Notes: generated by a model from the letters alone, not told the origin. A stretch of DNA of 64,000 nucleotides from a virus (IMGVR_UViG_3300021431_000079:32001-96000); one strand, 5' to 3'. Counted from the stretch's first letter, positions 39,094 to 47,861 are shown. Numbers and translations are program-made.

Positions 39094-41345
39094 GCACTAC
39101 ACAAAATGCCAATACTGGAACAATAACTTTTCAGGCCACGCTGAACAGGAAGATGTTTGAAAAACAATATGATGGTGAGCGATGGTGGCGAGTATATCTT
39201 ATGAATGCGTCCAAAAATTTAATTCCTGATGATGGTATCAATTACAGTGTCGTAAAGATATTTGGATATATCCCAGAATTAAATTATGACGAGAAATATA
39301 CCATCATAGCTCAACCAGAAGAAAACAGTAAGTACGGAATTTCCTATAGGGTGTTTCATATTGGACAGGAGTATAACGGCAATTATTCATCTAAAGATGT
39401 AGCTATATTTCTCAATTCTGTTATTCCATCCTATGCGGTAACGTTGCTGTCAGCATATCCAGATATATTAGATAGGATTGTACGTGACGAACCAATTGAT
39501 TACTCAAAAACTCGTGGCATAAAAGAAAAAGCGTATGAGAAAATAAAGAAAAGAGTGCTGAGCAATCTTAGAGAGATGGATTTTATTGTGGCGTTTGGAG
39601 ATATTATGTCAGCGTCACTCATTGCACGTATATATGAATTATATCCGTCTGTTGATGAGGCTAAGACTGCATTGGCAAATGATCCATATAAGTTCTTCTG
39701 CTCCGTTCAGCGTATTGGTTTTATAAAAGCTGATAAGCTGATTAAACAAATAGCAAGAATTGATAACAACCAGTATGGAATAAGTCGTGACATAATCAAC
39801 AGTGGGAGCAGGTGCTTATCTTGCATGAGATACCTACTGGAAAAGGCTCGTGATGGGGGTAACACTTATATTGAAGTTAAGGACTTGAGACAGGAAGTAG
39901 CAGAACTATGTCCAGAATGTGTTGATAAGTTCAATACGTGTATTTCGGATGATTCGTTATATTTTAATCCTAAAATGATGGCTGTATCTCTGCAAGAAGT
40001 GTTTGATATAGAGAAGGGTATCGCTGATATTATTCTGGATGTAATAAAGAAGCCCTTTTTCTATAATAAAATTGACCTCTCACTCTATAAAAATATAGAT
40101 GGTGTTGAATTAACTGATGAGCAGATACAATTTTTAGATATGGTTACTAAAAACAATATCAGCATTCTTAATGGATGTGCAGGAACAGGAAAGTCATTCA
40201 CAATAAAGGCATTAATTAAAATGCTGAATGACAACAATCTGAGCTATTTTCTTTTAGCTCCGACTGGTAAAGCCGCAAAAGTTATAACGGATTATACTAA
40301 TGATGAGGCAATGACAATACACAGGTGGTTGGCAATTCGTGAAAGATATGATTCTATACTGAATTATGCTGATGTAATAATCGTTGACGAATTCTCAATG
40401 GTTGATATTATAATTTGTTACCGTTTATTAAAACAAATTGACTTTAGCAGAACAAAGCTTGTGATCATAGGAGATAACGCACAGCTTCTGTCCGTATCAT
40501 GTGGCAACCTGCTTCATGAGTTTATCAATACAAATATAATTCCAAGGGTATCACTTTCAAAAGTGTTTCGCTATGCTGATGGTGGACTAATGATGGTGGC
40601 TACTGATGTGAGAAACGGAAAAGATTTCTTTGGATCAGCAAAAGAACCTATTTTGATTTATGGTAATGATTATAGGTTTATAAAAACATCAAAAGATAAC
40701 ATCGTGAATAATGCTGTCGCTTTATATAAAAAGCTGATCGGATCAGGTGTAAAGCCTTATGATATCGAGTTGTTATCTGCACAAAAAGTGGGTGATTGCG
40801 GTACTGAGGCAATTAATAGTAGGCTTCAGCAGGAGATAAACCCATATTATAATACAGAGCATGGAATTAAAATCTTTGAACACGAATACTATATTAGCGA
40901 TATAGTTATACAAACAGTAAATAATTATCGTGTCAGAACAGTGAAATATAATAATGAAGAAAACCAGTATTACATTGATCAGGAAGATATGTTTATAGCA
41001 AATGGAGAGATCGGAGAGATTGTAGACATTAGAGATAGACATGTTTATATTAAGTTCAATGATGAAATAGCAGAGTATACTGAGGGTGATATGCGAGATG
41101 TGCAACTGGGATATGCGATTACCGTCCATAAATCACAGGGATCATCTGCTAAGTATGTTATTTTTATTTCGCCAGAAAGTCATACATTTATGCTGTCTTC
41201 CAATCTTATTTATGTTGCGCTGACAAGAACAATTAAAACGTGTTTTCATTTTGGTGATGAAAGGGCGGTTAAGAGAGCGATTAAAAAAGTTGAGAACATT
41301 AAGAGACAAACATTTATGCATGATTTATTGTTAGGAACGATCTGA
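39090..41345 (+). CDS. RecD2/TraA-like SF1 helicase
   Basis: GCAGTGKS, APTGKAA, VDEFSM, GDNAQL, YAITVHKSQGS, YVALTR. Confidence 0.9.
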   Translation: MSTTQNANTGTITFQATLNRKMFEKQYDGERWWRVYLMNASKNLIPDDGINYSVVKIFGYIPELNYDEKYTIIAQPEENSKYGISYRVFHIGQEYNGNYSSKDVAIFLNSVIPSYAVTLLSAYPDILDRIVRDEPIDYSKTRGIKEKAYEKIKKRVLSNLREMDFIVAFGDIMSASLIARIYELYPSVDEAKTALANDPYKFFCSVQRIGFIKADKLIKQIARIDNNQYGISRDIINSGSRCLSCMRYLLEKARDGGNTYIEVKDLRQEVAELCPECVDKFNTCISDDSLYFNPKMMAVSLQEVFDIEKGIADIILDVIKKPFFYNKIDLSLYKNIDGVELTDEQIQFLDMVTKNNISILNGCAGTGKSFTIKALIKMLNDNNLSYFLLAPTGKAAKVITDYTNDEAMTIHRWLAIRERYDSILNYADVIIVDEFSMVDIIICYRLLKQIDFSRTKLVIIGDNAQLLSVSCGNLLHEFINTNIIPRVSLSKVFRYADGGLMMVATDVRNGKDFFGSAKEPILIYGNDYRFIKTSKDNIVNNAVALYKKLIGSGVKPYDIELLSAQKVGDCGTEAINSRLQQEINPYYNTEHGIKIFEHEYYISDIVIQTVNNYRVRTVKYNNEENQYYIDQEDMFIANGEIGEIVDIRDRHVYIKFNDEIAEYTEGDMRDVQLGYAITVHKSQGSSAKYVIFISPESHTFMLSSNLIYVALTRTIKTCFHFGDERAVKRAIKKVENIKRQTFMHDLLLGTI

Positions 41346-41385
41346 AAAAGTTGAAAAAAATATTGAAAAAAATATTAAATAATAC

Positions 41386-41414
41386 TTGACAGGTTCACAA
41401 TTATATGCTAATAT
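41386..41414 (+). promoter_or_regulatory. Sigma-A promoter for the tRNA/ncRNA island
   Basis: TTGACA-17 nt-TAATAT with extended TG and an upstream A-tract. Confidence 0.8.
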
Positions 41415-41531
41415 ATACCATGTAAGACAGAGGTGAACAAAACCTCCTGCCTCATGTAGTAATTTCCTTTCTTTTGTTTTTTTGTTTTGCTTGTTGGTGT
41501 TTGAATAAATTAAAACAAGCACCAACAATAT

Positions 41532-41605
41532 TGCGGGGTGGAGCAGTCTGGTAGCTTAACGGGTTCATGTCCCGAAGGTCGCAGGTTCGAATCCTGCCCC
41601 CGCGA
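41532..41605 (+). tRNA. tRNA-Met(CAT), initiator-like
   Basis: Cloverleaf; GGG/CCC anticodon stem; loop TTCATGT; TTCGAAT T-loop. Confidence 0.85.
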
Positions 41606-41829
41606 CTCGGTATAGCAAACGATGTTGCGATCTTTGCAGATACCGACTCATGAGTAGGTCTTGCCGGAGACCGTTAATGCGTAGCGTGTACGCAAGCACT
41701 GTCTACGCTCCGGCGCTGTCTATCTTGGTGAATATGCGACTTCAACTCCTCAATTATTTACCAGACAATTAAGGCGGCATCTATTTATAGATGTCGAGAA
41801 ATGGTGATCCCGTCAATCATCAAAAGATA

Positions 41830-41932
41830 TAAACGCTTACAGCAATCATTTTTTTGTAGTCAAATGGTTAGACAATACTCTTGAAAAGTATCATATGTTG
41901 GTTCAAATCCAACCAAAAGAAAAAGCGTTTAG
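41830..41932 (+). ncRNA. ACAGCAA stem element 1, enclosing a tRNA-like cloverleaf (anticodon TGA)
   Basis: taaacgc-ttACAGCAA...gcgttta-G; cloverleaf at 41850-41920. Confidence 0.8.
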
Positions 41933-41937
41933 AAATA

Positions 41938-41995
41938 AAGGCACACACAGCAAATATGTAAAAGTATTATTTGGGAATACATTTATTGTGCCTTG
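41938..41995 (+). ncRNA. ACAGCAA stem element 2
   Basis: aaggcac-acACAGCAA...gtgcctt-G. Confidence 0.8.
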
Positions 41996-41999
41996 TTAA

Positions 42000-42088
42000 G
42001 CAATCTTACTCAAGTGGTTGAAGAGAGTAGTCCTGAAAACTACGAGACGGTTAACAGCCGTGCGAAGGTTCGAATCCTTCAGATTGCG
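42000..42088 (+). tRNA. tRNA-Ser(TGA)
   Basis: gcaatct/agattgc acceptor, long variable arm, loop CCTGAAA, G discriminator. Confidence 0.85.
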
Positions 42089-42105
42089 CGAGGCTGTGTC
42101 GCTTT

Positions 42106-42253
42106 AGTGCGGTGGCGGAATAGGTATACGCTTAGTGTTAGGGTGCTTCTCCAGAAGATAACAGCGAACGCTTCAAAAAGTGACTAAGAGAAATAAGCAA
42201 ACCCGATCAACTTGTTTGTTTGTCATGCAGGGTGTAAATCCCTGCCCGCACTA
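42106..42253 (+). ncRNA. Oversized tRNA-like RNA (expanded anticodon and variable arms)
   Basis: agtgcgg/ccgcact acceptor, gcg-gaataggtata-cgc D-arm, gcaggg-tgtaaat-ccctgc T-arm. Confidence 0.7.
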
Positions 42254-42382
42254 TTTGAAATGAAATATATCGAGGCCATGAACAGTTCACAGTGATGCGG
42301 TGTGAAGCTATTACCGAAAGGGGTGGAGTAACCTCATGGAGAGGAGACATCGTTGAACGATCTTTGGATGGATGGTCATTAT

Positions 42383-42454
42383 GGGAGCGTAGCTCAGTTG
42401 GGAGAGCGTTTGACTTGCAATCAGGAAGATTGGGTTCGAATCCCACCGTGTCCA
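42383..42454 (+). tRNA. tRNA-Ala(TGC)
   Basis: Loop CTTGCAA; G3-U70 pair; one acceptor mismatch. Confidence 0.8.
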
Positions 42455-42463
42455 CTTTATTAT

Positions 42464-42537
42464 GCTGTGGTAGCCCAATTGGCAGAGGCAACTGTCTCAA
42501 AAGCAGTACAGTATGGGTTCGAATCCCATGCACAGTA
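42464..42537 (+). tRNA. tRNA-Leu(CAA), short variable loop
   Basis: actgt-CTCAAAA-gcagt; atggg-TTCGAAT-cccat. Confidence 0.8.
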
Positions 42538-42725
42538 TTAAACAGAGCATTGGCTGTTTTTTAAATCTCCTTTCTTTGTTTTTGTGCCAATGCAGTTTAG
42601 TCGGTACTTAACTGACAAAGATTATCCAGAAGCTAACAGTATAGGATAATTAAATATTTGATGAGTTAGCATCTCAAAAATCAAGCCTTAGCACAGCAGA
42701 ACTATGAGATAAAAACATCAAATAA

Positions 42726-42797
42726 GACTGAATTCATCCAGTGGTAGGAGACTTAAGCATATGCGAGTGACGCAGGTTCGATTCCTGCATTCGGTCT
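42726..42797 (+). ncRNA. tRNA-like RNA with a non-canonical anticodon arm
   Basis: gactgaat/attcggtc stem, tcc-agtggta-gga D-arm, gcagg-TTCGATT-cctgc T-arm; no 7-nt anticodon loop. Confidence 0.65.
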
Positions 42798-42798
42798 T

Positions 42799-42858
42799 TA
42801 AGCACACACAACAATTATATTGAAAATCTTTTAGGGTAAAGAATTTTTTGGTGCTTAG
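42799..42858 (+). ncRNA. ACAGCAA stem element 3 (variant ACAACAA)
   Basis: taagcac-acACAACAA...gtgctta-G. Confidence 0.7.
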
Positions 42859-42862
42859 GAAA

Positions 42863-42922
42863 AAGACACATGCAGCAAATATGTATTTTGTATTTTATAA
42901 TCAAGCATAAAAAGGTGTCTTG
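42863..42922 (+). ncRNA. ACAGCAA stem element 4 (variant GCAGCAA), directly upstream of the DUF2828 RBS
   Basis: aagacac-atGCAGCAA...gtgtctt-G. Confidence 0.8.
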
Positions 42923-42937
42923 TTAAGGAGGATTAAG

Positions 42938-44443
42938 ATGAATTTTTATAACATGATGGAGAATCAGGTTAAAACTACGAAGAGCCTTACTGAAAATGGA
43001 GCAATTGCTTACAAAACCTCTGGGAGTGAACTGCTTGATTATAATTTTCATGTAAGCGCATTAAGAGCAAAGAGCGAAGCTGAAATTCAGGCAATGTTCG
43101 AAAGAGCGTTCTATGAGGATAAGATCGCCGCTCTCAGATATCTCTTTTATCTTGGTGATATCAGGGAGGGAATTGGTGAAAGAAAGCAGTTCAGAGCTTG
43201 TATGAGTTACCTTATTCAGTATCATACTGATATAGCTCTTGCTGTCATGCCTTTTATTCCTGAGTACAACAGGTTTGATTCTCTCATGGTATTTGTAGAG
43301 AATAAGAACACTCATGATGTGGCTATTGAGTTCCTGAAGAAGCAAATAGAGACTGATAAGAGGAATATGAAAGAAGGAAAGCCAGTCTCATTATGTGCAA
43401 AATGGATGCCAAGTGAGAATGCGTCTTCAAAAAGAACCAGAGAGCTTGCAAGGAATATCATTAGTAGTTTTAAATGGTCTGAAAGTAAATATAGAAAGAC
43501 ACTTTCTGCACTCCGTGATTTTATCGGGGTAACTGAGGTGTTCATGAGTGCCGGGAAATGGGCATCCATCGACTACTCAAAAGTCCCATCAAAGGCGAAT
43601 TTGATCTATCAGGGTGCATTCCTCAGAAACGACAAGGAGAGGAGAGAAGCCTATCTGGAATCTCTTAAAAACGGCACTACAAAGATCAACGCAAAGGTAT
43701 TACAGCCTCATGAGATTGTTTATAATTACGCGAGGGATATACATGGGGTGAACACTGCATACGAGGAGATGTGGAAAAATCTTCCTGCATATACATTGGA
43801 TAATGTACTTGTGGTAAGAGACGGATCTTACTCTATGACTGGTGGTTTTGGAATAAGCTATCGTCCTCTTGATGTTGCTACTGCTCTTGCTATTTATATG
43901 GCAGATCATAACTCAAGTGAATGGAAGAATAAGTTCATTACGTTCTCTTCTTCTCCTAAAATCGTTGATCTTTCTAACTGCAAGACTCTTAGAGACAAGA
44001 TTAGGAAAACATACGCAGAGGATGATTGCAGTAACACCAACATCTATAAGACAATGAAGCTTATACTTAATACAGCTATCGAAAATAATGTTTCTCAGGA
44101 AGAAATGCCCAAAATGGTTGTCATTTGTTCTGATATGCAGTTTGACGGACGCTACGAACGCTATTTTAATTATAATAAAAGCCTATTTGATACAATTAAA
44201 GATGAGTATAAGGAACATGGTTATCTTCTTCCGAAGATTTGTTTTTGGAATCTGAGTGGAAACGTAGATAATACAATCCCAATGCAGGAGAATGATCTTG
44301 GAATGATTCTTTGTAGCGGATTTAGTGTTCATCTTCTTAAGATGTTCATGAGCAATCAGTTAGATCCGTACAAGATTCTTTTAGATGCAATCAACCAGAA
44401 GAGATACGACCCGATTGAGAATGCCGTAAAGCATCTGGTATAA
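42938..44443 (+). CDS. DUF2828-family protein (helical N-terminal region plus C-terminal vWA; Ro60/TROVE-like architecture)
   Basis: LTENGA, DIREGIGER, CAKWMPSE, IDYSKVPSKA, MIDAS VRDGSYSM...NTN...SDMQFD, FWNL, SGFS; AAGGAGG RBS. Confidence 0.85.
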   Translation: MNFYNMMENQVKTTKSLTENGAIAYKTSGSELLDYNFHVSALRAKSEAEIQAMFERAFYEDKIAALRYLFYLGDIREGIGERKQFRACMSYLIQYHTDIALAVMPFIPEYNRFDSLMVFVENKNTHDVAIEFLKKQIETDKRNMKEGKPVSLCAKWMPSENASSKRTRELARNIISSFKWSESKYRKTLSALRDFIGVTEVFMSAGKWASIDYSKVPSKANLIYQGAFLRNDKERREAYLESLKNGTTKINAKVLQPHEIVYNYARDIHGVNTAYEEMWKNLPAYTLDNVLVVRDGSYSMTGGFGISYRPLDVATALAIYMADHNSSEWKNKFITFSSSPKIVDLSNCKTLRDKIRKTYAEDDCSNTNIYKTMKLILNTAIENNVSQEEMPKMVVICSDMQFDGRYERYFNYNKSLFDTIKDEYKEHGYLLPKICFWNLSGNVDNTIPMQENDLGMILCSGFSVHLLKMFMSNQLDPYKILLDAINQKRYDPIENAVKHLV

Positions 44444-44453
44444 AAAAATAAAA

Positions 44454-44521
44454 AAGACGCATACAGCAAAATTATATTCTGGAATAGCCTTTTAAACTAT
44501 GAACCAAAATAAAGCGTCTTG
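44454..44521 (+). ncRNA. ACAGCAA stem element 5, directly downstream of DUF2828
   Basis: aagacgc-atACAGCAA...gcgtctt-G; inner atag-c-CTTTTAA-a-ctat. Confidence 0.85.
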
Positions 44522-44751
44522 TATAAAGGAAGCGTTTGCCGTGAAAGGCGGCTTGGTACAGTATGCCAATATAATACTGGTAGTGTGAGTGAGCAGTTAG
44601 GTCTCTGTTAGAAGCAACGCAACCATCTCTCACGCATGAGTTTTCATAAAAAGATCAAACTGAGTAGTGAAGATAAAGCCATTTGATATCCCCACTGTAC
44701 GAAACTTTATTCTTCGTCCGTACAACAGGAATAAAGTTGTGGACAAAAGTA

Positions 44752-44819
44752 TACCTTGTAGTTCAACGGAGAGAATACCTCTTTGGAGGAGATGCAGAGT
44801 TCGAGTCCTGCCATAGGAA
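44752..44819 (+). pseudogene. Degenerate tRNA (4-nt anticodon loop)
   Basis: tagttcaacggagagaat D-arm, cctc-tttg-gagg, gttcgagtcctgc T-arm remnant. Confidence 0.5.
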
Positions 44820-44961
44820 GCTTTTGTAAAAGATATTGAATGAAAACACTGTATAACATATTAGCAATGCCGGTCGCATATAAATTAGACCCCTGATAAG
44901 TGTTTGCGCAGACTGAACTCAGGTACAGTGTCTACAGATGAAAGGCTGTGGCTCAGTTTAT

Positions 44962-45037
44962 GCTTTCATAGCACAATTGGTAGTGCAGTTGATTTGTAAT
45001 CAACAGGTTGGGGGTTCGAGTCCCCGTGGCATCACCA
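44962..45037 (+). tRNA. tRNA-Thr(TGT) with a poorly paired acceptor stem and encoded CCA
   Basis: gttga-TTTGTAA-tcaac; acceptor gctttca/tggcatc has two mismatches. Confidence 0.65.
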
Positions 45038-45184
45038 TTGGCAATACAGGTTTCGGTGTAAGTCCGTGTAATGTTGCTCCTACCAAAATCCCGAATGGAG
45101 ACCCCCTGAAAAAAAAATTGAATCGGCTTGGGGATATGCTGATTCTTGTAGACCGGATTTTAAGCCTTTTTGCTGGTCTATTAT

Positions 45185-45257
45185 GCGGTAGTAGCGCAAT
45201 TGGTAGCGCATCACCTTGCCAAGGTGGAGGTTGTTGGTTCGAGTCCAACTGGGAGCT
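45185..45257 (+). tRNA. tRNA-Gly(GCC)-like with a broken acceptor stem
   Basis: cacc-TTGCCAA-ggtg; D and T arms intact; acceptor gcggtag/tgggagc mostly unpaired. Confidence 0.55.
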
Positions 45258-45445
45258 TGGGATAGTAACAAGATTACTATCATGTATGATGAAATATGTG
45301 ATTGGGTTGGTGACAGTCACATATGGAGTACGATGTTGGTTAAGCAGTTACCTAAAGCCAACTAAGGTCTTAGACTGAAAGAAAATGCTTGAACAAAAGG
45401 AATTTCCTTTTACCTACAAATTGTTTACAAGGAGTAGGGTTTTAC

Positions 45446-45519
45446 TGGGACGTGGCGCAACCGGTGAGCGCAGTGGTCTTATAAACCAAAGGCTGGGAGT
45501 TCGAGTCTCCTCGTCCCGA
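45446..45519 (+). tRNA. tRNA-Ile(TAT)
   Basis: tgggacg/cgtcccg acceptor; tggt-CTTATAA-acca. Confidence 0.8.
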
Positions 45520-45523
45520 TTTA

Positions 45524-45617
45524 AAGGTACATACAGCAAATTAGATATAATTCTTAAAAGTATTTAAATTGTAGTTATCTTTATTTTATTTTTTTTAAAA
45601 ATTGTAAACGTGCCTTG
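45524..45617 (+). ncRNA. ACAGCAA stem element 6
   Basis: aaggtac-atACAGCAA...gtgcctt-G (one U-G pair). Confidence 0.75.
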
Positions 45618-45622
45618 CATAT

Positions 45623-45684
45623 GAGACGCTAACAGCAAATATTTTTTTTATAACAAAAGCTGACAAGTGTTATTAAGCGTCTCG
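45623..45684 (+). ncRNA. ACAGCAA stem element 7
   Basis: gagacgc-taACAGCAA...gcgtctc-G. Confidence 0.8.
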
Positions 45685-45969
45685 TCTCCCTTTGCTCGAC
45701 AAGGGCAGTGCGCACAGAGTTGATCGTCTGTGCTATGTTACAAATTTGTCTACGTTAAACACCTAAGAGATTGAGTGTTTCAAACATCCGCAGATATCCG
45801 CAGAGTGGGGATAAATAAAAATAGTCTTCGAAATCTGTTACGCTTCACTTAACGTAGATCTAAGTTGTAACAAAAAATAAAAGAATGTGAGGTATAAACC
45901 GATGGGCTATTAATCCAACTTAGTTTGGTAAGCAGTTTGCGGTCTGCTAAATAAAAAAACCGCATCTAT

Positions 45970-46044
45970 TGGGGTGTAGTTCAGTTTGGTTAGAACGCTG
46001 CGCTTGGGACGCAGAGGTCGTGGGTTCGAATCCCACCACTCCAA
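45970..46044 (+). tRNA. tRNA-Pro(TGG)
   Basis: ctgcg-CTTGGGA-cgcag; canonical cloverleaf. Confidence 0.95.
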
Positions 46045-46050
46045 CTATAA

Positions 46051-46123
46051 GTGCCAATAGCTTAGTTGGTAAAGCACATGACTTTTAATCATGGGAGCGT
46101 GGGTTCAAGTCCCACTTGGCACA
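46051..46123 (+). tRNA. tRNA-Lys(TTT)
   Basis: catga-CTTTTAA-tcatg; canonical cloverleaf. Confidence 0.95.
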
Positions 46124-46141
46124 TTAAGGTCTGTAATTTAT

Positions 46142-46214
46142 TGCTCCTTCGCCAAGCGGTAAGGCACAGGACTTTGACTCCTGCATTACACTGGTTCGAA
46201 TCCAGTAGGGGCAG
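46142..46214 (+). tRNA. tRNA-Gln(TTG)
   Basis: cagga-CTTTGAC-tcctg; canonical cloverleaf. Confidence 0.95.
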
Positions 46215-46406
46215 TTTTGGTTATATAAAAAATGATAAAGGAGGAAATTATGACAGACATCAGATTGAAACTTGCACCACTTTGGATTACGTGAAAATGT
46301 ATTGAATGGAGTGTATTTCAATACAGATGTTGAGCATGGTTATCTTGGTAAACCGTTTGGTGAATAGCCTTAATGATATAAAAATAATAAAATAAATTAA
46401 AAAATA

Positions 46407-46483
46407 GAGACACATACAGCAACAAAAACAGAATAAATCTATATTATAATATTATAATCCAATCAATACTTCCAAGTGTCTCG
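46407..46483 (+). ncRNA. ACAGCAA stem element 8
   Basis: gagacac-atACAGCAA...gtgtctc-G. Confidence 0.8.
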
Positions 46484-47861
46484 TGATAAAATAGAAAAAA
46501 TCAGAGGTATAAAATGACATACATGCGTTTGATTAATTATTGTACTCGCCGTGATGGTAATTGTAAGAAGTGTGCTTATACAAAGTATTGCAATCAGTAC
46601 AAGAAGTTATTTGACGGTGACATTCCGTTAGACGATGATGAGTTTCACCCTGATAGATATATTAAAAAAGAAATTATACTTGAGGAATAATTAAGTTATG
46701 AAAAGCAAAATTGCAAAGACCGATAATAGCACCTTTAGAAATATAAATATAATCATAAAAGTATTTCTAATTATAGCTATTATCGGTTTTTTATTTGGAA
46801 GCCTGACAGTAGATAGTCAGTCTAAGATACCGTTGATTGTCCTTATTATTTCTTCCTCATGGATTGCTTTGTGTTTCTTACACTTTATAAGCATACACCT
46901 TCTGTTTGAGGAGAATGTCGTAATGTCACCAGAAGAATTTCAGGATAATTTTATGGATAATTAATAATAGCAAAAAGGGGTAACATGAATGGATTAGTAA
47001 TAGCAATTATTATAGTCGTGTTTATTATAATCGCAATTATAGATTATGCTTGCTGTGTTATGAGCGGAATAGATGAAGAGCGATGTAATAGAGAACGAGA
47101 GAAGCGAGAGAAACATAAGAATGACGAACTTTGAATTATGGGTTAAAGCTTGTGAAGTATTTGATGATCAAATATATAAGCTCACCAAGAATCAGGAAGA
47201 TGGTCATGGTGTTTATCAGACTATAAAAGAATACTTTCCACCGAAAAGCTATAATACTATGAGATGTGTGATGTATCATTTATGGTGGCATGGAAAACAT
47301 GAAGTGGTGGGTAGCGATTATTACAGCATAATCAATTTATTCGAGAAAAGAGAAAAAGATGGATACGTTAGAACTGAGTAAATATAAATATATATATAAA
47401 GTAATTGTTAACACTGACGCTGAAATTGATAAATATAATATATATAAATATCCAATAGTATATATCAGCAAAGAGTTTGTATATTATCCTGAACATGAGC
47501 ACGGTGAACTTATAAAGATTCATAATGAGTGTACAAATGATTTACATAACGAGTTTATTTGCATAAAGGGTGCAACATCGAGATCATTGTTTGGCAAGGA
47601 ACACACATATTATTATATATCATATAAAAAAGTAGACAGAGAGCAAATAAAAGAAGCCATAAGTCAGATTATAAATAAAATTTCTATAGAAGAAAGAAGT
47701 ATAGAAATTGAAAATTTAGAAAAGCGAATCAAAGATTTAAAATCTCAAATAAATATGCTCGATGCTGATCTTAAAAAACAGAAAGAAGATATGGTCGAGA
47801 TGAAGCATACAGAAAACATAAAACTTGTAGAAGAACTGCTTAATAAGGGAATGATATAAAT

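What the first reader, a model, noticed from the sequence alone, without database searches (positions are those of the whole stretch)
41830..41932. A whole tRNA cloverleaf mounted inside an ACAGCAA element
Seen: inside element 1 lies ttttttg-ta-gtc(aaatggtta)gac-a-atact(CTTGAAA)agtat-catat-gttgg(TTCAAAT)ccaac-caaaaga. This has D, anticodon (UGA) and T arms, but an almost all A-U acceptor, no long Ser variable arm and no CCA, and it is capped by the conserved stem. Inference: it is an unchargeable tRNA mimic fused to a protein-binding handle. That parallels YrlA RNAs but with a different topology, since the handle extends the acceptor stem rather than replacing the anticodon arm. It suggests the other elements are reduced versions of such tRNA cargo.
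Basis: partly seen in the sequence, partly recalled or inferred. Interest (0 to 1): 0.85.

Follow-up and report, generated by a model that had tools for sequence, protein, structure and literature searches.

The report
tRNA-shaped cargo on Ro60-partner RNA
A large phage carries a complete tRNA-shaped RNA clamped inside the conserved "handle" it shares with seven neighbouring small RNAs, next to a gene for a Ro60-like ring protein. It is most likely a tRNA look-alike displayed on an undescribed kind of Y-RNA particle, not a working tRNA.

Summary
Positions 41850-41921 are a canonical class I cloverleaf with anticodon UGA (Rfam tRNA, 60.3 bits). It is closed by a 9-bp stem (41830-41838 with 41923-31) that carries ACAGCAA on its 5' side.

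A covariance model built mostly from other phages finds exactly eight such handles in the 165-kb genome. All lie at 41828-46485 on one strand, around a DUF2828/DUF7788 gene whose predicted fold matches Ro60.

In 82 related loci, all 209 handle hits lie on that gene's strand. Their cargo is modular:
- bare anticodon hairpins, four of them with E1's own loop CUUGAAA;
- T-arm or D-arm hairpins;
- permuted T-acceptor-D domains with YrlA topology;
- rarely, whole cloverleaves with weak or broken acceptor stems.

E1 lacks the seryl features. It has no long variable arm, unlike all 20 other phage tRNA(UGA) genes examined, and it has A73. A class II tRNA-Ser(UGA) lies 78 nt downstream, though with C33.

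So the YrlA parallel with a different topology holds. Non-chargeability and protein binding remain inferences.

This scan has met the same handle/DUF2828 system on other DNA. I found no Rfam family or paper for it. The handle equals that of the dictyostelid Class I RNAs.

The parts
41830..41838 (+). Handle, 5' strand (TAAACGCTT) of element E1
   Evidence: Pairs 9/9 with 41923-41931. It is in the minimum-energy fold. R1 hit at 41828-41934, 32.5 bits, E = 1.8e-5.
41839..41845 (+). ACAGCAA motif, unpaired and directly 3' of the handle's 5' strand. UCA(U) at 41846-41849 links it to the cloverleaf.
   Evidence: CAGCAA is invariant in 48/48 aligned elements from many phages. The same letters occur in the dictyostelid Class I RNA motif CCTTACAGCAA.
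41850..41921 (+). Complete class I tRNA-shaped domain with anticodon UGA (41882-41884), anticodon loop CUUGAAA (41880-41886), a 5-nt variable region and A73
   Evidence: Rfam tRNA 60.3 bits, model positions 1-71. ARAGORN 41849-41922. It is the only class I tRNA(tga) among 22 calls in related loci.
41923..41932 (+). Handle, 3' strand (AAGCGTTTA), followed by the conserved unpaired G (41932). Only one nucleotide (41922) separates it from the discriminator.
   Evidence: (the G after the 3' strand is invariant).
41936..41997 (+). Element E2: handle plus a short hairpin cargo with loop AUUUGGG
   Evidence: R1 49.7 bits, E = 9.6e-10. Fold.
42797..42860 (+). Element E3 (ACAACAA variant)
   Evidence: R1 31.6 bits, E = 3.1e-5; not in the training set.
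42861..42924 (+). Element E4 (GCAGCAA variant), abutting the ribosome-binding site of the DUF2828 gene
   Evidence: R1 46.6 bits. Sequence.
42938..44443 (+). Gene for a 501-aa DUF2828 + DUF7788 protein with a Ro60-like ring plus vWA fold; the presumed partner of the handle
   Evidence: Pfam E = 6e-38 and 1.8e-41. AF2 model with pLDDT 78. The top 12 Foldseek PDB hits are all Ro60/TROVE, probability 1.0, TM about 0.5.
44452..44523 (+). Element E5: cargo is an anticodon-type hairpin with loop CUUUUAA (as in Lys UUU)
   Evidence: R1 61.1 bits, E = 1.4e-12. Sequence.
45522..45619 (+). Element E6 (weak; long AT-rich interior; G.U pair in the stem)
   Evidence: R1 19.6 bits, E = 0.029.
45621..45686 (+). 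Element E7
   Evidence: R1 44.3 bits, E = 2.1e-8.
46405..46485 (+). Element E8
   Evidence: R1 41.4 bits, E = 1.1e-7; not in the training set.
42000..42089 (+). Class II tRNA-Ser(UGA) with long variable arm and G73, the likely true UCA decoder. Its anticodon loop is CCUGAAA (C33).
   Evidence: ARAGORN. Rfam 51.5 bits. Loop comparison.
41386..41414 (+). Strong sigma-70-type promoter upstream of the whole tRNA/handle-RNA cluster
   Evidence: TTGACA-17-TAATAT with an upstream TG, 10/12 matches. No terminator-like site in 41300-46700.

Best explanation
E1 (41830-41932) is one of eight genes for Y-RNA-like small RNAs. They partner the phage's Ro60-like DUF2828/vWA protein, encoded at 42938-44443.

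**Architecture (shown).** All eight share a handle: a terminal stem, ACAGCAA on the 5' side and an unpaired G after the 3' strand. Each carries a different cargo in the loop. In E1 the cargo is a complete class I tRNA-shaped domain. The handle continues its acceptor helix. Ten unpaired nucleotides (ACAGCAAUCA) lie on the 5' strand and one on the 3' strand. The 3' end is therefore buried in a helix.

**Inferred mechanism.** The cluster is transcribed from the promoter at 41386. The ring protein binds the handle through ACAGCAA, as Ro60 binds the 5' strand of the Y-RNA stem. The cloverleaf is presented as a tRNA mimic that shows the standard tRNA-Ser(UGA) anticodon loop, not as a decoder of UCA. 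The class II tRNA-Ser 78 nt downstream does the decoding.

**Most likely role of the mimic (inference only).** It serves as bait or decoy for a host factor that recognises tRNA anticodon loops, such as an anticodon nuclease. Alternatively it tethers a tRNA-handling enzyme to the ring, as Y RNA tethers PNPase.
For: **Handle family and its gene.**
- R1 finds 8 hits in the 165-kb genome, all on the + strand within 4.7 kb around the gene.
- In 82 related loci, 209 of 209 hits lie on the gene's strand and 64 of 82 loci have at least one.
- The stems covary: 86 cells change on both sides, against 28 in shuffles.
- The protein folds like Ro60.

**Cargo is built from tRNA parts.**
- Anticodon-type hairpins occur in 44 of 155 short elements, against 7.9 +/- 2.8 in shuffles. 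Five loops dominate, including CUUGAAA four times.
- About ten elements of roughly 120 nt carry T-arm, then a closed acceptor hairpin, then a D-arm, in that order.
- Whole cloverleaves occur in about six lineages.

**Nested cloverleaves are not under normal acceptor selection.**
- 4 of 5 have imperfect stems, against 52 of 455 free tRNAs (P = 9e-4).
- 4 of 5 have two or fewer G-C pairs, against 24 of 455 (P = 5e-5).
- Rfam matches two of them only over model positions 6-65.
- The nested tRNA(GGC) lacks G3.U70 and has C37.

**E1 itself.**
- It is the only class I tRNA(tga) among 22 calls; all others are 84-95 nt.
- It has A73 rather than G73, and one G-C pair in the acceptor.
- The acceptor is absent from the minimum-energy fold while the handle is present.
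- Two of its three closest relatives among about 460 tRNAs are other nested cloverleaves.

**Precedent.** YrlA RNAs mimic tRNA and lie beside Ro60 on the same strand (PMC4201824). A phage Ro60 binds phage Y-like RNAs (PMC12135203).
Against: - No RNA ends, expression data or binding data could be obtained.
- E1's cloverleaf is fully canonical, with 7/7 acceptor pairs and every tertiary-contact nucleotide. RNase P, 3' trimming and CCA addition could release it.
- E1 is identical in the only close relative, so there is no comparative test of selection on E1 itself.
- Whole nested cloverleaves are rare: 80 further metagenome loci added none.
- The elements used for covariation were picked for pairing, which inflates.
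- The decoy idea has only anecdotal support. The loop of a U33-mutant tRNA is matched by a displayed wild-type loop in 2 of about 9 cases.
Confidence: 0.55

Rival explanations
1. E1 is a working tRNA gene. The handle is only its precursor's leader-trailer duplex, for example a maturation or stability signal shared by the operon. RNase P and 3' processing discard it and the tRNA is then charged.
For: - Full-length Rfam tRNA match at 60.3 bits with a 7/7 acceptor.
- It lies in a tRNA operon with one promoter and no terminators.
- M. smegmatis YrlA, with a 7-bp acceptor, is cut by RNase P and gets CCA (PMC4201824).
- The neighbouring class II tRNA-Ser has an odd C33, so a second UGA tRNA might be useful.
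Against: - By established identity rules, bacterial SerRS needs the long variable arm and favours G73. E1 has a 5-nt variable region and A73.
- All 20 other phage tRNA(UGA) genes seen are class II.
- Acceptor stems with a single G-C pair occur in 1 of 455 free tRNAs.
- Other nested cloverleaves have broken acceptors.
- The same handle mostly encloses cargo that cannot be a tRNA.
Confidence: 0.2
2. E1 is an evolutionary accident. A tRNA gene or pseudogene recombined into the loop of one handle element, and the cloverleaf has no function of its own.
For: - tRNA clusters of phages are recombination-prone.
- E1-type cargo is rare.
- The window holds several damaged tRNA-like sequences.
Against: - Every structural and tertiary position of the cloverleaf is intact.
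- The junction geometry is the family's own.
- Independent lineages repeat the design with other anticodons.
- E1's anticodon loop is one of the few loops the family displays repeatedly.
Confidence: 0.12
3. The ACAGCAA hairpins are not protein ligands. They are punctuation of the polycistronic transcript (nuclease entry or stop sites) or a DNA-level signal, and their closeness to DUF2828 is incidental.
For: - They sit between tRNAs and at gene borders.
- E4 abuts the ribosome-binding site.
- There are no terminators in the cluster.
Against: - 209 of 209 hits lie on the gene's strand, and they cluster within a few hundred nt of it across proteins only 32-60% identical.
- Cargo made of tRNA parts, including a YrlA-like permuted domain, is not expected of punctuation.
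- Stem covariation with an invariant single-stranded motif fits an RNA ligand.
Confidence: 0.08
4. E1 is charged with an amino acid other than serine, for example by a synthetase that ignores the anticodon, and recodes UCA.
For: A73 and an A15-U48 pair are features that I recall as E. coli LeuRS identity elements. This is from memory only and was not tested.
Against: - There is no sign of an altered code: long ORFs read normally.
- A class II tRNA-Ser(UGA) is present.
- The 3' end is locked in the handle.
Confidence: 0.02

Closest known systems
Bacterial and phage YrlA-type Y RNAs with Ro60/Rsr (Rfam RF02553; Chen et al. 2014, PMC4201824; Thermus phage phiLo Ro60 with Yrl1/2, PMC12135203)
   Same: - A small RNA lies on the same strand and within a few kb of a Ro60-fold ring/vWA gene.
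- A terminal stem carries a short conserved single-stranded motif near the 5' end.
- The body mimics tRNA.
- There are several different RNAs per genome.
- Relatives of E1 carry the same permuted T-arm / closed acceptor / D-arm order.
   Different: - The motif is ACAGCAA, not GNCGAA(N)G.
- The Rfam YrlA model does not match.
- The protein hits DUF2828/DUF7788, not the Pfam TROVE family.
- In E1 the tRNA is whole and unpermuted, with its own anticodon arm, and the handle prolongs the acceptor stem instead of replacing the anticodon arm.
- Many family members carry only an anticodon, D or T hairpin.
Class I RNAs of dictyostelid social amoebae (Kjellin et al. 2021, PMC7919456)
   Same: The handle is the same: a 6-7-bp terminal stem, then CCTTACAGCAA, a variable interior, the 3' stem strand, and unpaired UG. 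They are about 60 nt long with about 35% GC. I read the motif and sequences in that paper's supplementary files. E1 reads CGCTTACAGCAA.
   Different: - They are eukaryotic, with their own promoter element, and the only reported partner is the RRM protein Rnp1A.
- No tRNA-like cargo is described.
- Their function is unknown.
- I did not test whether amoebae carry a DUF2828 protein.
Ordinary phage tRNA genes, including variants with anticodon-loop mutations that escape host anticodon nucleases (van den Berg et al. 2023, PMC10264068)
   Same: E1's body passes every tRNA detector and lies in a phage tRNA cluster. The neighbouring true tRNA-Ser carries a rare C33, the kind of change that paper describes.
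   Different: E1 lacks the identity features of the amino acid its anticodon implies. It is enclosed by the handle, and its acceptor is nearly all A-U.

Membership tests
   E1 pairs 9/9. Family covariation.
   41839-41845 and 41932. Invariant columns.
   32.5 bits, E = 1.8e-5. It lies 1 kb upstream of the gene. 209 of 209 hits in relatives lie on the gene's strand.
Functional bacterial-type tRNA-Ser | Cloverleaf above the Rfam tRNA gathering score | tested here: met
   60.3 bits against 29.
Functional bacterial-type tRNA-Ser | Long (class II) variable arm, the main SerRS determinant (established knowledge) | tested here: not met
   The variable region is 5 nt. All 20 other tRNA(tga) genes in related loci are 84-95 nt.
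Functional bacterial-type tRNA-Ser | G73 discriminator (established knowledge) | tested here: not met
   A at 41921. The class II tRNA-Ser at 42000-42089 has G73.
Functional bacterial-type tRNA-Ser | Free, CCA-ended, aminoacylated 3' end | not testable with these tools
The encoded 3' flank is paired in the handle.
YrlA (Rfam RF02553) | Match to the YrlA covariance model | tested here: not met
   The only hit is a chance one at 22 bits, elsewhere in the window, against a gathering score of 69. No hit on relatives.
YrlA (Rfam RF02553) | GNCGAA(N)G motif near the 5' end (PMC4201824) | tested here: not met
   ACAGCAA occupies that place.
YrlA (Rfam RF02553) | tRNA-like domain in the order T-arm, closed acceptor stem-loop, D-arm, with the protein-binding stem in place of the anticodon arm | tested here: not met
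   E1 has the normal tRNA order with its own anticodon arm. The permuted order is present in sister elements of other phages.
YrlA (Rfam RF02553) | Encoded beside a Ro60 orthologue on the same strand | tested here: inconclusive
   The neighbour has a Ro60 fold but belongs to DUF2828/DUF7788 rather than Pfam TROVE. There is no sequence hit to PDB Ro60 chains.
Dictyostelid Class I RNA | Short terminal stem + CCTTACAGCAA + variable interior + 3' strand + UG, about 42-65 nt | tested here: inconclusive
   The handle letters and layout agree. E1 is 102 nt because of the cloverleaf. The organism and promoter differ, and homology as against convergence was not tested.

The most novel reading that the evidence does not exclude
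The DUF2828 ring protein and its handle RNAs form a phage counter-defence particle. It displays tRNA parts, from bare anticodon loops to whole cloverleaves, as bait for host tRNA-cutting defence nucleases. E1 would be the full-length bait carrying the wild-type tRNA-Ser(UGA) loop, while the phage decodes UCA with a nuclease-resistant C33 variant of tRNA-Ser. The shared handle with amoebal Class I RNAs would then point to an ancient, widespread handle-ring RNP.
Probability: 0.15. Interest if true: 0.9.

Novelty: new variant of a known kind. Interest (0 to 1): 0.68.

Why it matters
Ro60/Y-RNA particles are known from animals, some bacteria and a few phages. What the tRNA-like part of bacterial Y RNAs is for remains open.

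Here a second, sequence-unrelated handle serves a Ro60-fold protein family that is very common in large gut and rumen phages. More than 3000 homologues were scored. The cargo ranges from single anticodon loops to a whole tRNA.

E1 is the clearest case, because the mimic is complete and carries a defined anticodon. That gives a direct handle on the question 'what reads the tRNA-like part?'. One can pull down what binds an E1 cloverleaf but not an E1 with a mutated anticodon loop.

It also warns annotators that some 'tRNA genes' in phage tRNA clusters are probably not decoders. Finally, it links the orphan Class I RNAs of social amoebae to a candidate protein partner class.

Tried and rejected
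- **Close phage relatives.** Megablast of the region against INPHARED phages found nothing. The only close relative, L009/L014 at 98% protein identity, is identical across E1 and gives no covariation.
- **More loci.** 80 metagenome loci yielded only the two nested cloverleaves already known and no new E1-type case.
- **Known RNA families.** Rfam YrlA and all other Rfam families do not cover the handle elements.
- **Sequence search of the protein.** A profile search against PDB chains found nothing. Only the fold search gave Ro60.
- **Consensus fold of the permuted elements.** RNAalifold recovered only the T-arm because MAFFT misaligned the variable parts. The order T / acceptor hairpin / D therefore rests on single-sequence folds and my motif script.
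- **Promoters or terminators in the loops.** Rejected: promoter-like sites are at the shuffle level and there are no terminator-like sites.
- **MITE, attC or other DNA repeats.** Rejected: the interiors are unrelated, the stems covary, and all copies lie on the gene's strand.
- **Pairing of U33-mutant tRNAs with displayed wild-type loops.** Only 2 of about 9 cases fit (this window, and L023 with Lys). Too few to count.
- **RNA-repair genes in this genome.** No RtcB and no CCA-adding-type enzyme. One RNA-ligase-family gene lies far from the cluster.
- **Literature.** 'DUF2828' returned no functional paper.

Full report
**Where we are.** The window is bases 32001-96000 of a 165-kb IMG/VR phage record. 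The finding lies in a 4.7-kb non-coding-rich stretch that follows a DnaE-type polymerase gene and a RecD-like helicase gene. This stretch holds ten ARAGORN tRNAs (twelve Rfam tRNA matches) and a drum RNA. One strong sigma-70-type promoter lies at 41386-41414, and no terminator-like site occurs up to 46700. The cluster is therefore probably one transcript.

**The observation.** ARAGORN (41849-41922) and Rfam (41850-41921; 60.3 bits against a gathering score of 29; model positions 1-71) both call a tRNA with anticodon UGA. Read from the sequence, it is a textbook class I cloverleaf:
- U8 and A14 are present, and the D loop carries GG.
- A 5-bp anticodon stem encloses the loop CUUGAAA.
- The variable region is 5 nt, with an A15-U48 pair.
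- The T loop is UUCAAAU.
- The discriminator is A73.
- The acceptor is U-A, U.G, four U-A pairs and G-C: fully paired, but with one G-C pair.

Around the cloverleaf, TAAACGCTT (41830-41838) pairs perfectly with AAGCGTTTA (41923-41931). ACAGCAA and UCA(U) lie unpaired on the 5' side. A single A (41922) lies on the 3' side, and a G follows the stem (41932).

In the minimum-energy fold the handle and the D, anticodon and T hairpins form, but the A-U acceptor does not (-19 kcal/mol, z = -2.3).

By my reading, nine of the ten ARAGORN-called tRNAs here also lack an encoded CCA.

**The handle is a family.** A script found stem-plus-ACAGCAA hairpins only in this stretch of the genome. I aligned 48 short elements, 4 from the window and 44 from other phages.
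- CAGCAA and the G after the 3' strand are invariant.
- The 7-8-bp stem changes on both sides in 86 cells, against 28 in shuffles. These elements were picked for pairing, so the percentage paired is circular.
- Model R1, built from this alignment, finds exactly eight hits in the window and in the whole genome. All are on the + strand at 41828-46485.
- E1 (32.5 bits, E = 1.8e-5), E3, E6 and E8 were not in the training set.

**The partner gene.** The eight elements surround a 501-aa ORF (42938-44443) that matches DUF2828 and DUF7788. A profile of 25 homologues finds no PDB chain by sequence. The AlphaFold model (pLDDT 78) does match by fold: its top twelve Foldseek hits are all Ro60/TROVE structures, aligned over nearly the whole length with probability 1.0 and TM about 0.5. 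These include Xenopus, human and Deinococcus Ro60 and the Ro60 of Thermus phage phiLo. The protein therefore has a Ro60-like ring plus a vWA domain.

**The association is general.**
- The protein has more than 3000 scored homologues.
- In 82 loci around homologues of 32-98% identity, R1 gives 209 hits at E <= 0.01. All are on the gene's strand, and most lie within a few hundred nt of it. 64 of 82 loci have at least one hit.
- A second set of 80 metagenome loci gives 238 script hits on the gene's strand against 30 on the other.

This is the signature by which YrlA RNAs were tied to Ro60 (PMC4201824).

**What the handles carry.** Element lengths are bimodal, about 60 nt and about 120 nt.
- **Anticodon hairpins.** Of 155 distinct short elements, 44 contain a hairpin with a stem of at least 4 bp and a 7-nt loop of anticodon type (pyrimidine, U, NNN, purine, N). 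Shuffles give 7.9 +/- 2.8. Five loops dominate: CUGUUAA (11), CUUUUAA (8), CUGCUAA (5), CUUGAAA (4) and CUUGUAA (3). CUUGAAA is E1's anticodon loop.
- **Other short cargo.** Some short elements carry D-loop-like or T-arm hairpins.
- **Permuted tRNA-like domains.** About ten elements of roughly 120 nt carry, in order, a T-arm, a closed hairpin whose stem differs in every copy, and a D-arm preceded by U-purine. That is a tRNA permuted so that the handle stands where the anticodon arm would be, which is the YrlA plan (PMC4201824). Rfam's YrlA model does not detect them.

**Whole cloverleaves in handles.** Besides E1 and its identical copy in L014, unpermuted cloverleaves sit in handles in several loci:
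- L015 (GGC);
- L020 (UUG);
- L067, L068 and L072 (GAU);
- L073 (UUC);
- probably L029.

These cloverleaves are not normal tRNAs:
- 4 of the 5 called by ARAGORN have imperfect acceptor stems, against 52 of 455 free-standing tRNAs from the same loci (P = 9e-4).
- 4 of 5 have two or fewer G-C pairs, against 24 of 455 (P = 5e-5).
- Rfam matches two of them only over model positions 6-65.
- The GGC one lacks G3.U70 and has C37.

Two of E1's three closest relatives among about 460 tRNAs are other nested cloverleaves.

**Is E1 a seryl tRNA?** All 20 other tRNA(tga) genes in the related loci are class II, at 84-95 nt. Only E1 and its L014 copy are class I. Bacterial SerRS depends on the long arm, which is established knowledge. 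E1 also has A73, whereas the class II tRNA-Ser(UGA) 78 nt downstream (42000-42089) has G73. That gene, however, has loop CCUGAAA. C33 is rare: U33 occurs in 447 of 460 distinct tRNAs, and CUUGAAA occurs in 18 of the 20 type II tRNA-Ser(UGA) calls outside this phage and its near-identical relative L014.

The phage thus pairs a probable decoder that has a mutated loop with a non-seryl cloverleaf that shows the standard loop. Phage tRNAs with loop mutations escape anticodon nucleases (PMC10264068), so a 'resistant tRNA plus bait' reading suggests itself. Only one other of about nine U33-mutant cases shows the same pairing, so this is a lead and not a result.

**Mechanism.**
- *Shown:* the architecture, family membership, linkage to a Ro60-fold gene, tRNA-part cargo, and the lack of seryl identity features.
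- *Inferred:* the protein binds the handle via ACAGCAA, by analogy with Ro60, which reads the 5' strand of the Y-RNA stem (PMC4201824); the cloverleaf stays attached and uncharged; it acts as bait or tether.
- *Caveat:* M. smegmatis YrlA, with a 7-bp acceptor, is cut by RNase P and gets CCA. E1 might also be nicked at U1. The 9-bp handle could still hold the two pieces together, with the 3' end buried.

**Comparison with known systems.** E1 works like a Y RNA of the YrlA kind, but it fails each YrlA membership test that could be run: model, motif and permuted order. The handle equals that of the dictyostelid Class I RNAs (terminal stem, CCTTACAGCAA, variable interior, 3' strand, UG). I confirmed this in the sequence files of PMC7919456, following a lead from earlier notes of this scan.

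I found no paper on DUF2828 function and no Rfam family. The scan itself has reported the same protein/handle system on many other genomes, including one 'otherwise complete tRNA' in a handle. The family is therefore not new to the scan. E1 adds a clean, full-length, defined-anticodon case.

**Verdict.** I file it as a new variant of the Ro60/Y-RNA kind.

Noticed in passing
window 42000-42089: The class II tRNA-Ser(UGA) has anticodon loop CCUGAAA (C33). U33 is present in 447 of 460 distinct tRNAs of related loci, and 18 of the 20 type II tRNA-Ser(UGA) calls outside this phage and L014 have CUUGAAA. It may be a nuclease-escape variant.
   Followed up: partly
window 45284-45393: A drum RNA (Rfam RF02958, 78.5 bits, full length) lies inside the tRNA/handle-RNA cluster.
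   Followed up: no
window 44962-45037, 45185-45257, 44752-44819: These are tRNA-like genes with defects. Thr(UGU) has only 5/7 acceptor pairs. Rfam calls a tRNA at 45185-45257 that ARAGORN does not. A sub-threshold tRNA-like match (25.6 bits) lies at 44752-44819.
   Followed up: no
L073 703-1080; L011 21-335: Related phages encode their own RNase P RNA (class B, 238 bits) and a tmRNA (97.8 bits), close to their DUF2828 gene and handle RNAs.
   Followed up: no
G000:C1:111886-112404 (outside the window; locus L182 952-2052): The same phage encodes an RNA-ligase-family protein (PF09414 plus the PHA02142 OB domain). It has no RtcB and no CCA-adding-type enzyme.
   Followed up: partly
L023 7263-7337 and 3851-3918: A tRNA-Lys(UUU) with G33 (loop CGUUUAG) coexists with a handle element that displays the standard Lys loop CUUUUAA on a 5-bp stem. 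This is the only other case like E1 with the C33 tRNA-Ser.
   Followed up: partly
L048 3463-3527, L051 3535-3603, L059 7-76, L067 1336-1401, L082 1086-1154 and others: A subset of short handle elements carries a hairpin whose loop looks like a tRNA D loop (for example CAAAUGGUGA, CAAUUGGUA) rather than an anticodon loop.
   Followed up: partly
L010 9022-10455: An IS605 OrfB/TnpB-type gene lies a few kb downstream of the DUF2828 gene in the closest divergent relative.
   Followed up: no
Short elements in many loci, e.g. window 44478-44508, L031 5495-5558, L019 5593-5657: Anticodon-type hairpins in handle elements are often framed by GG(A/G)AU upstream and ACC(A) downstream. This suggests a further short helix that closes a mini anticodon-arm module.
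   Followed up: no
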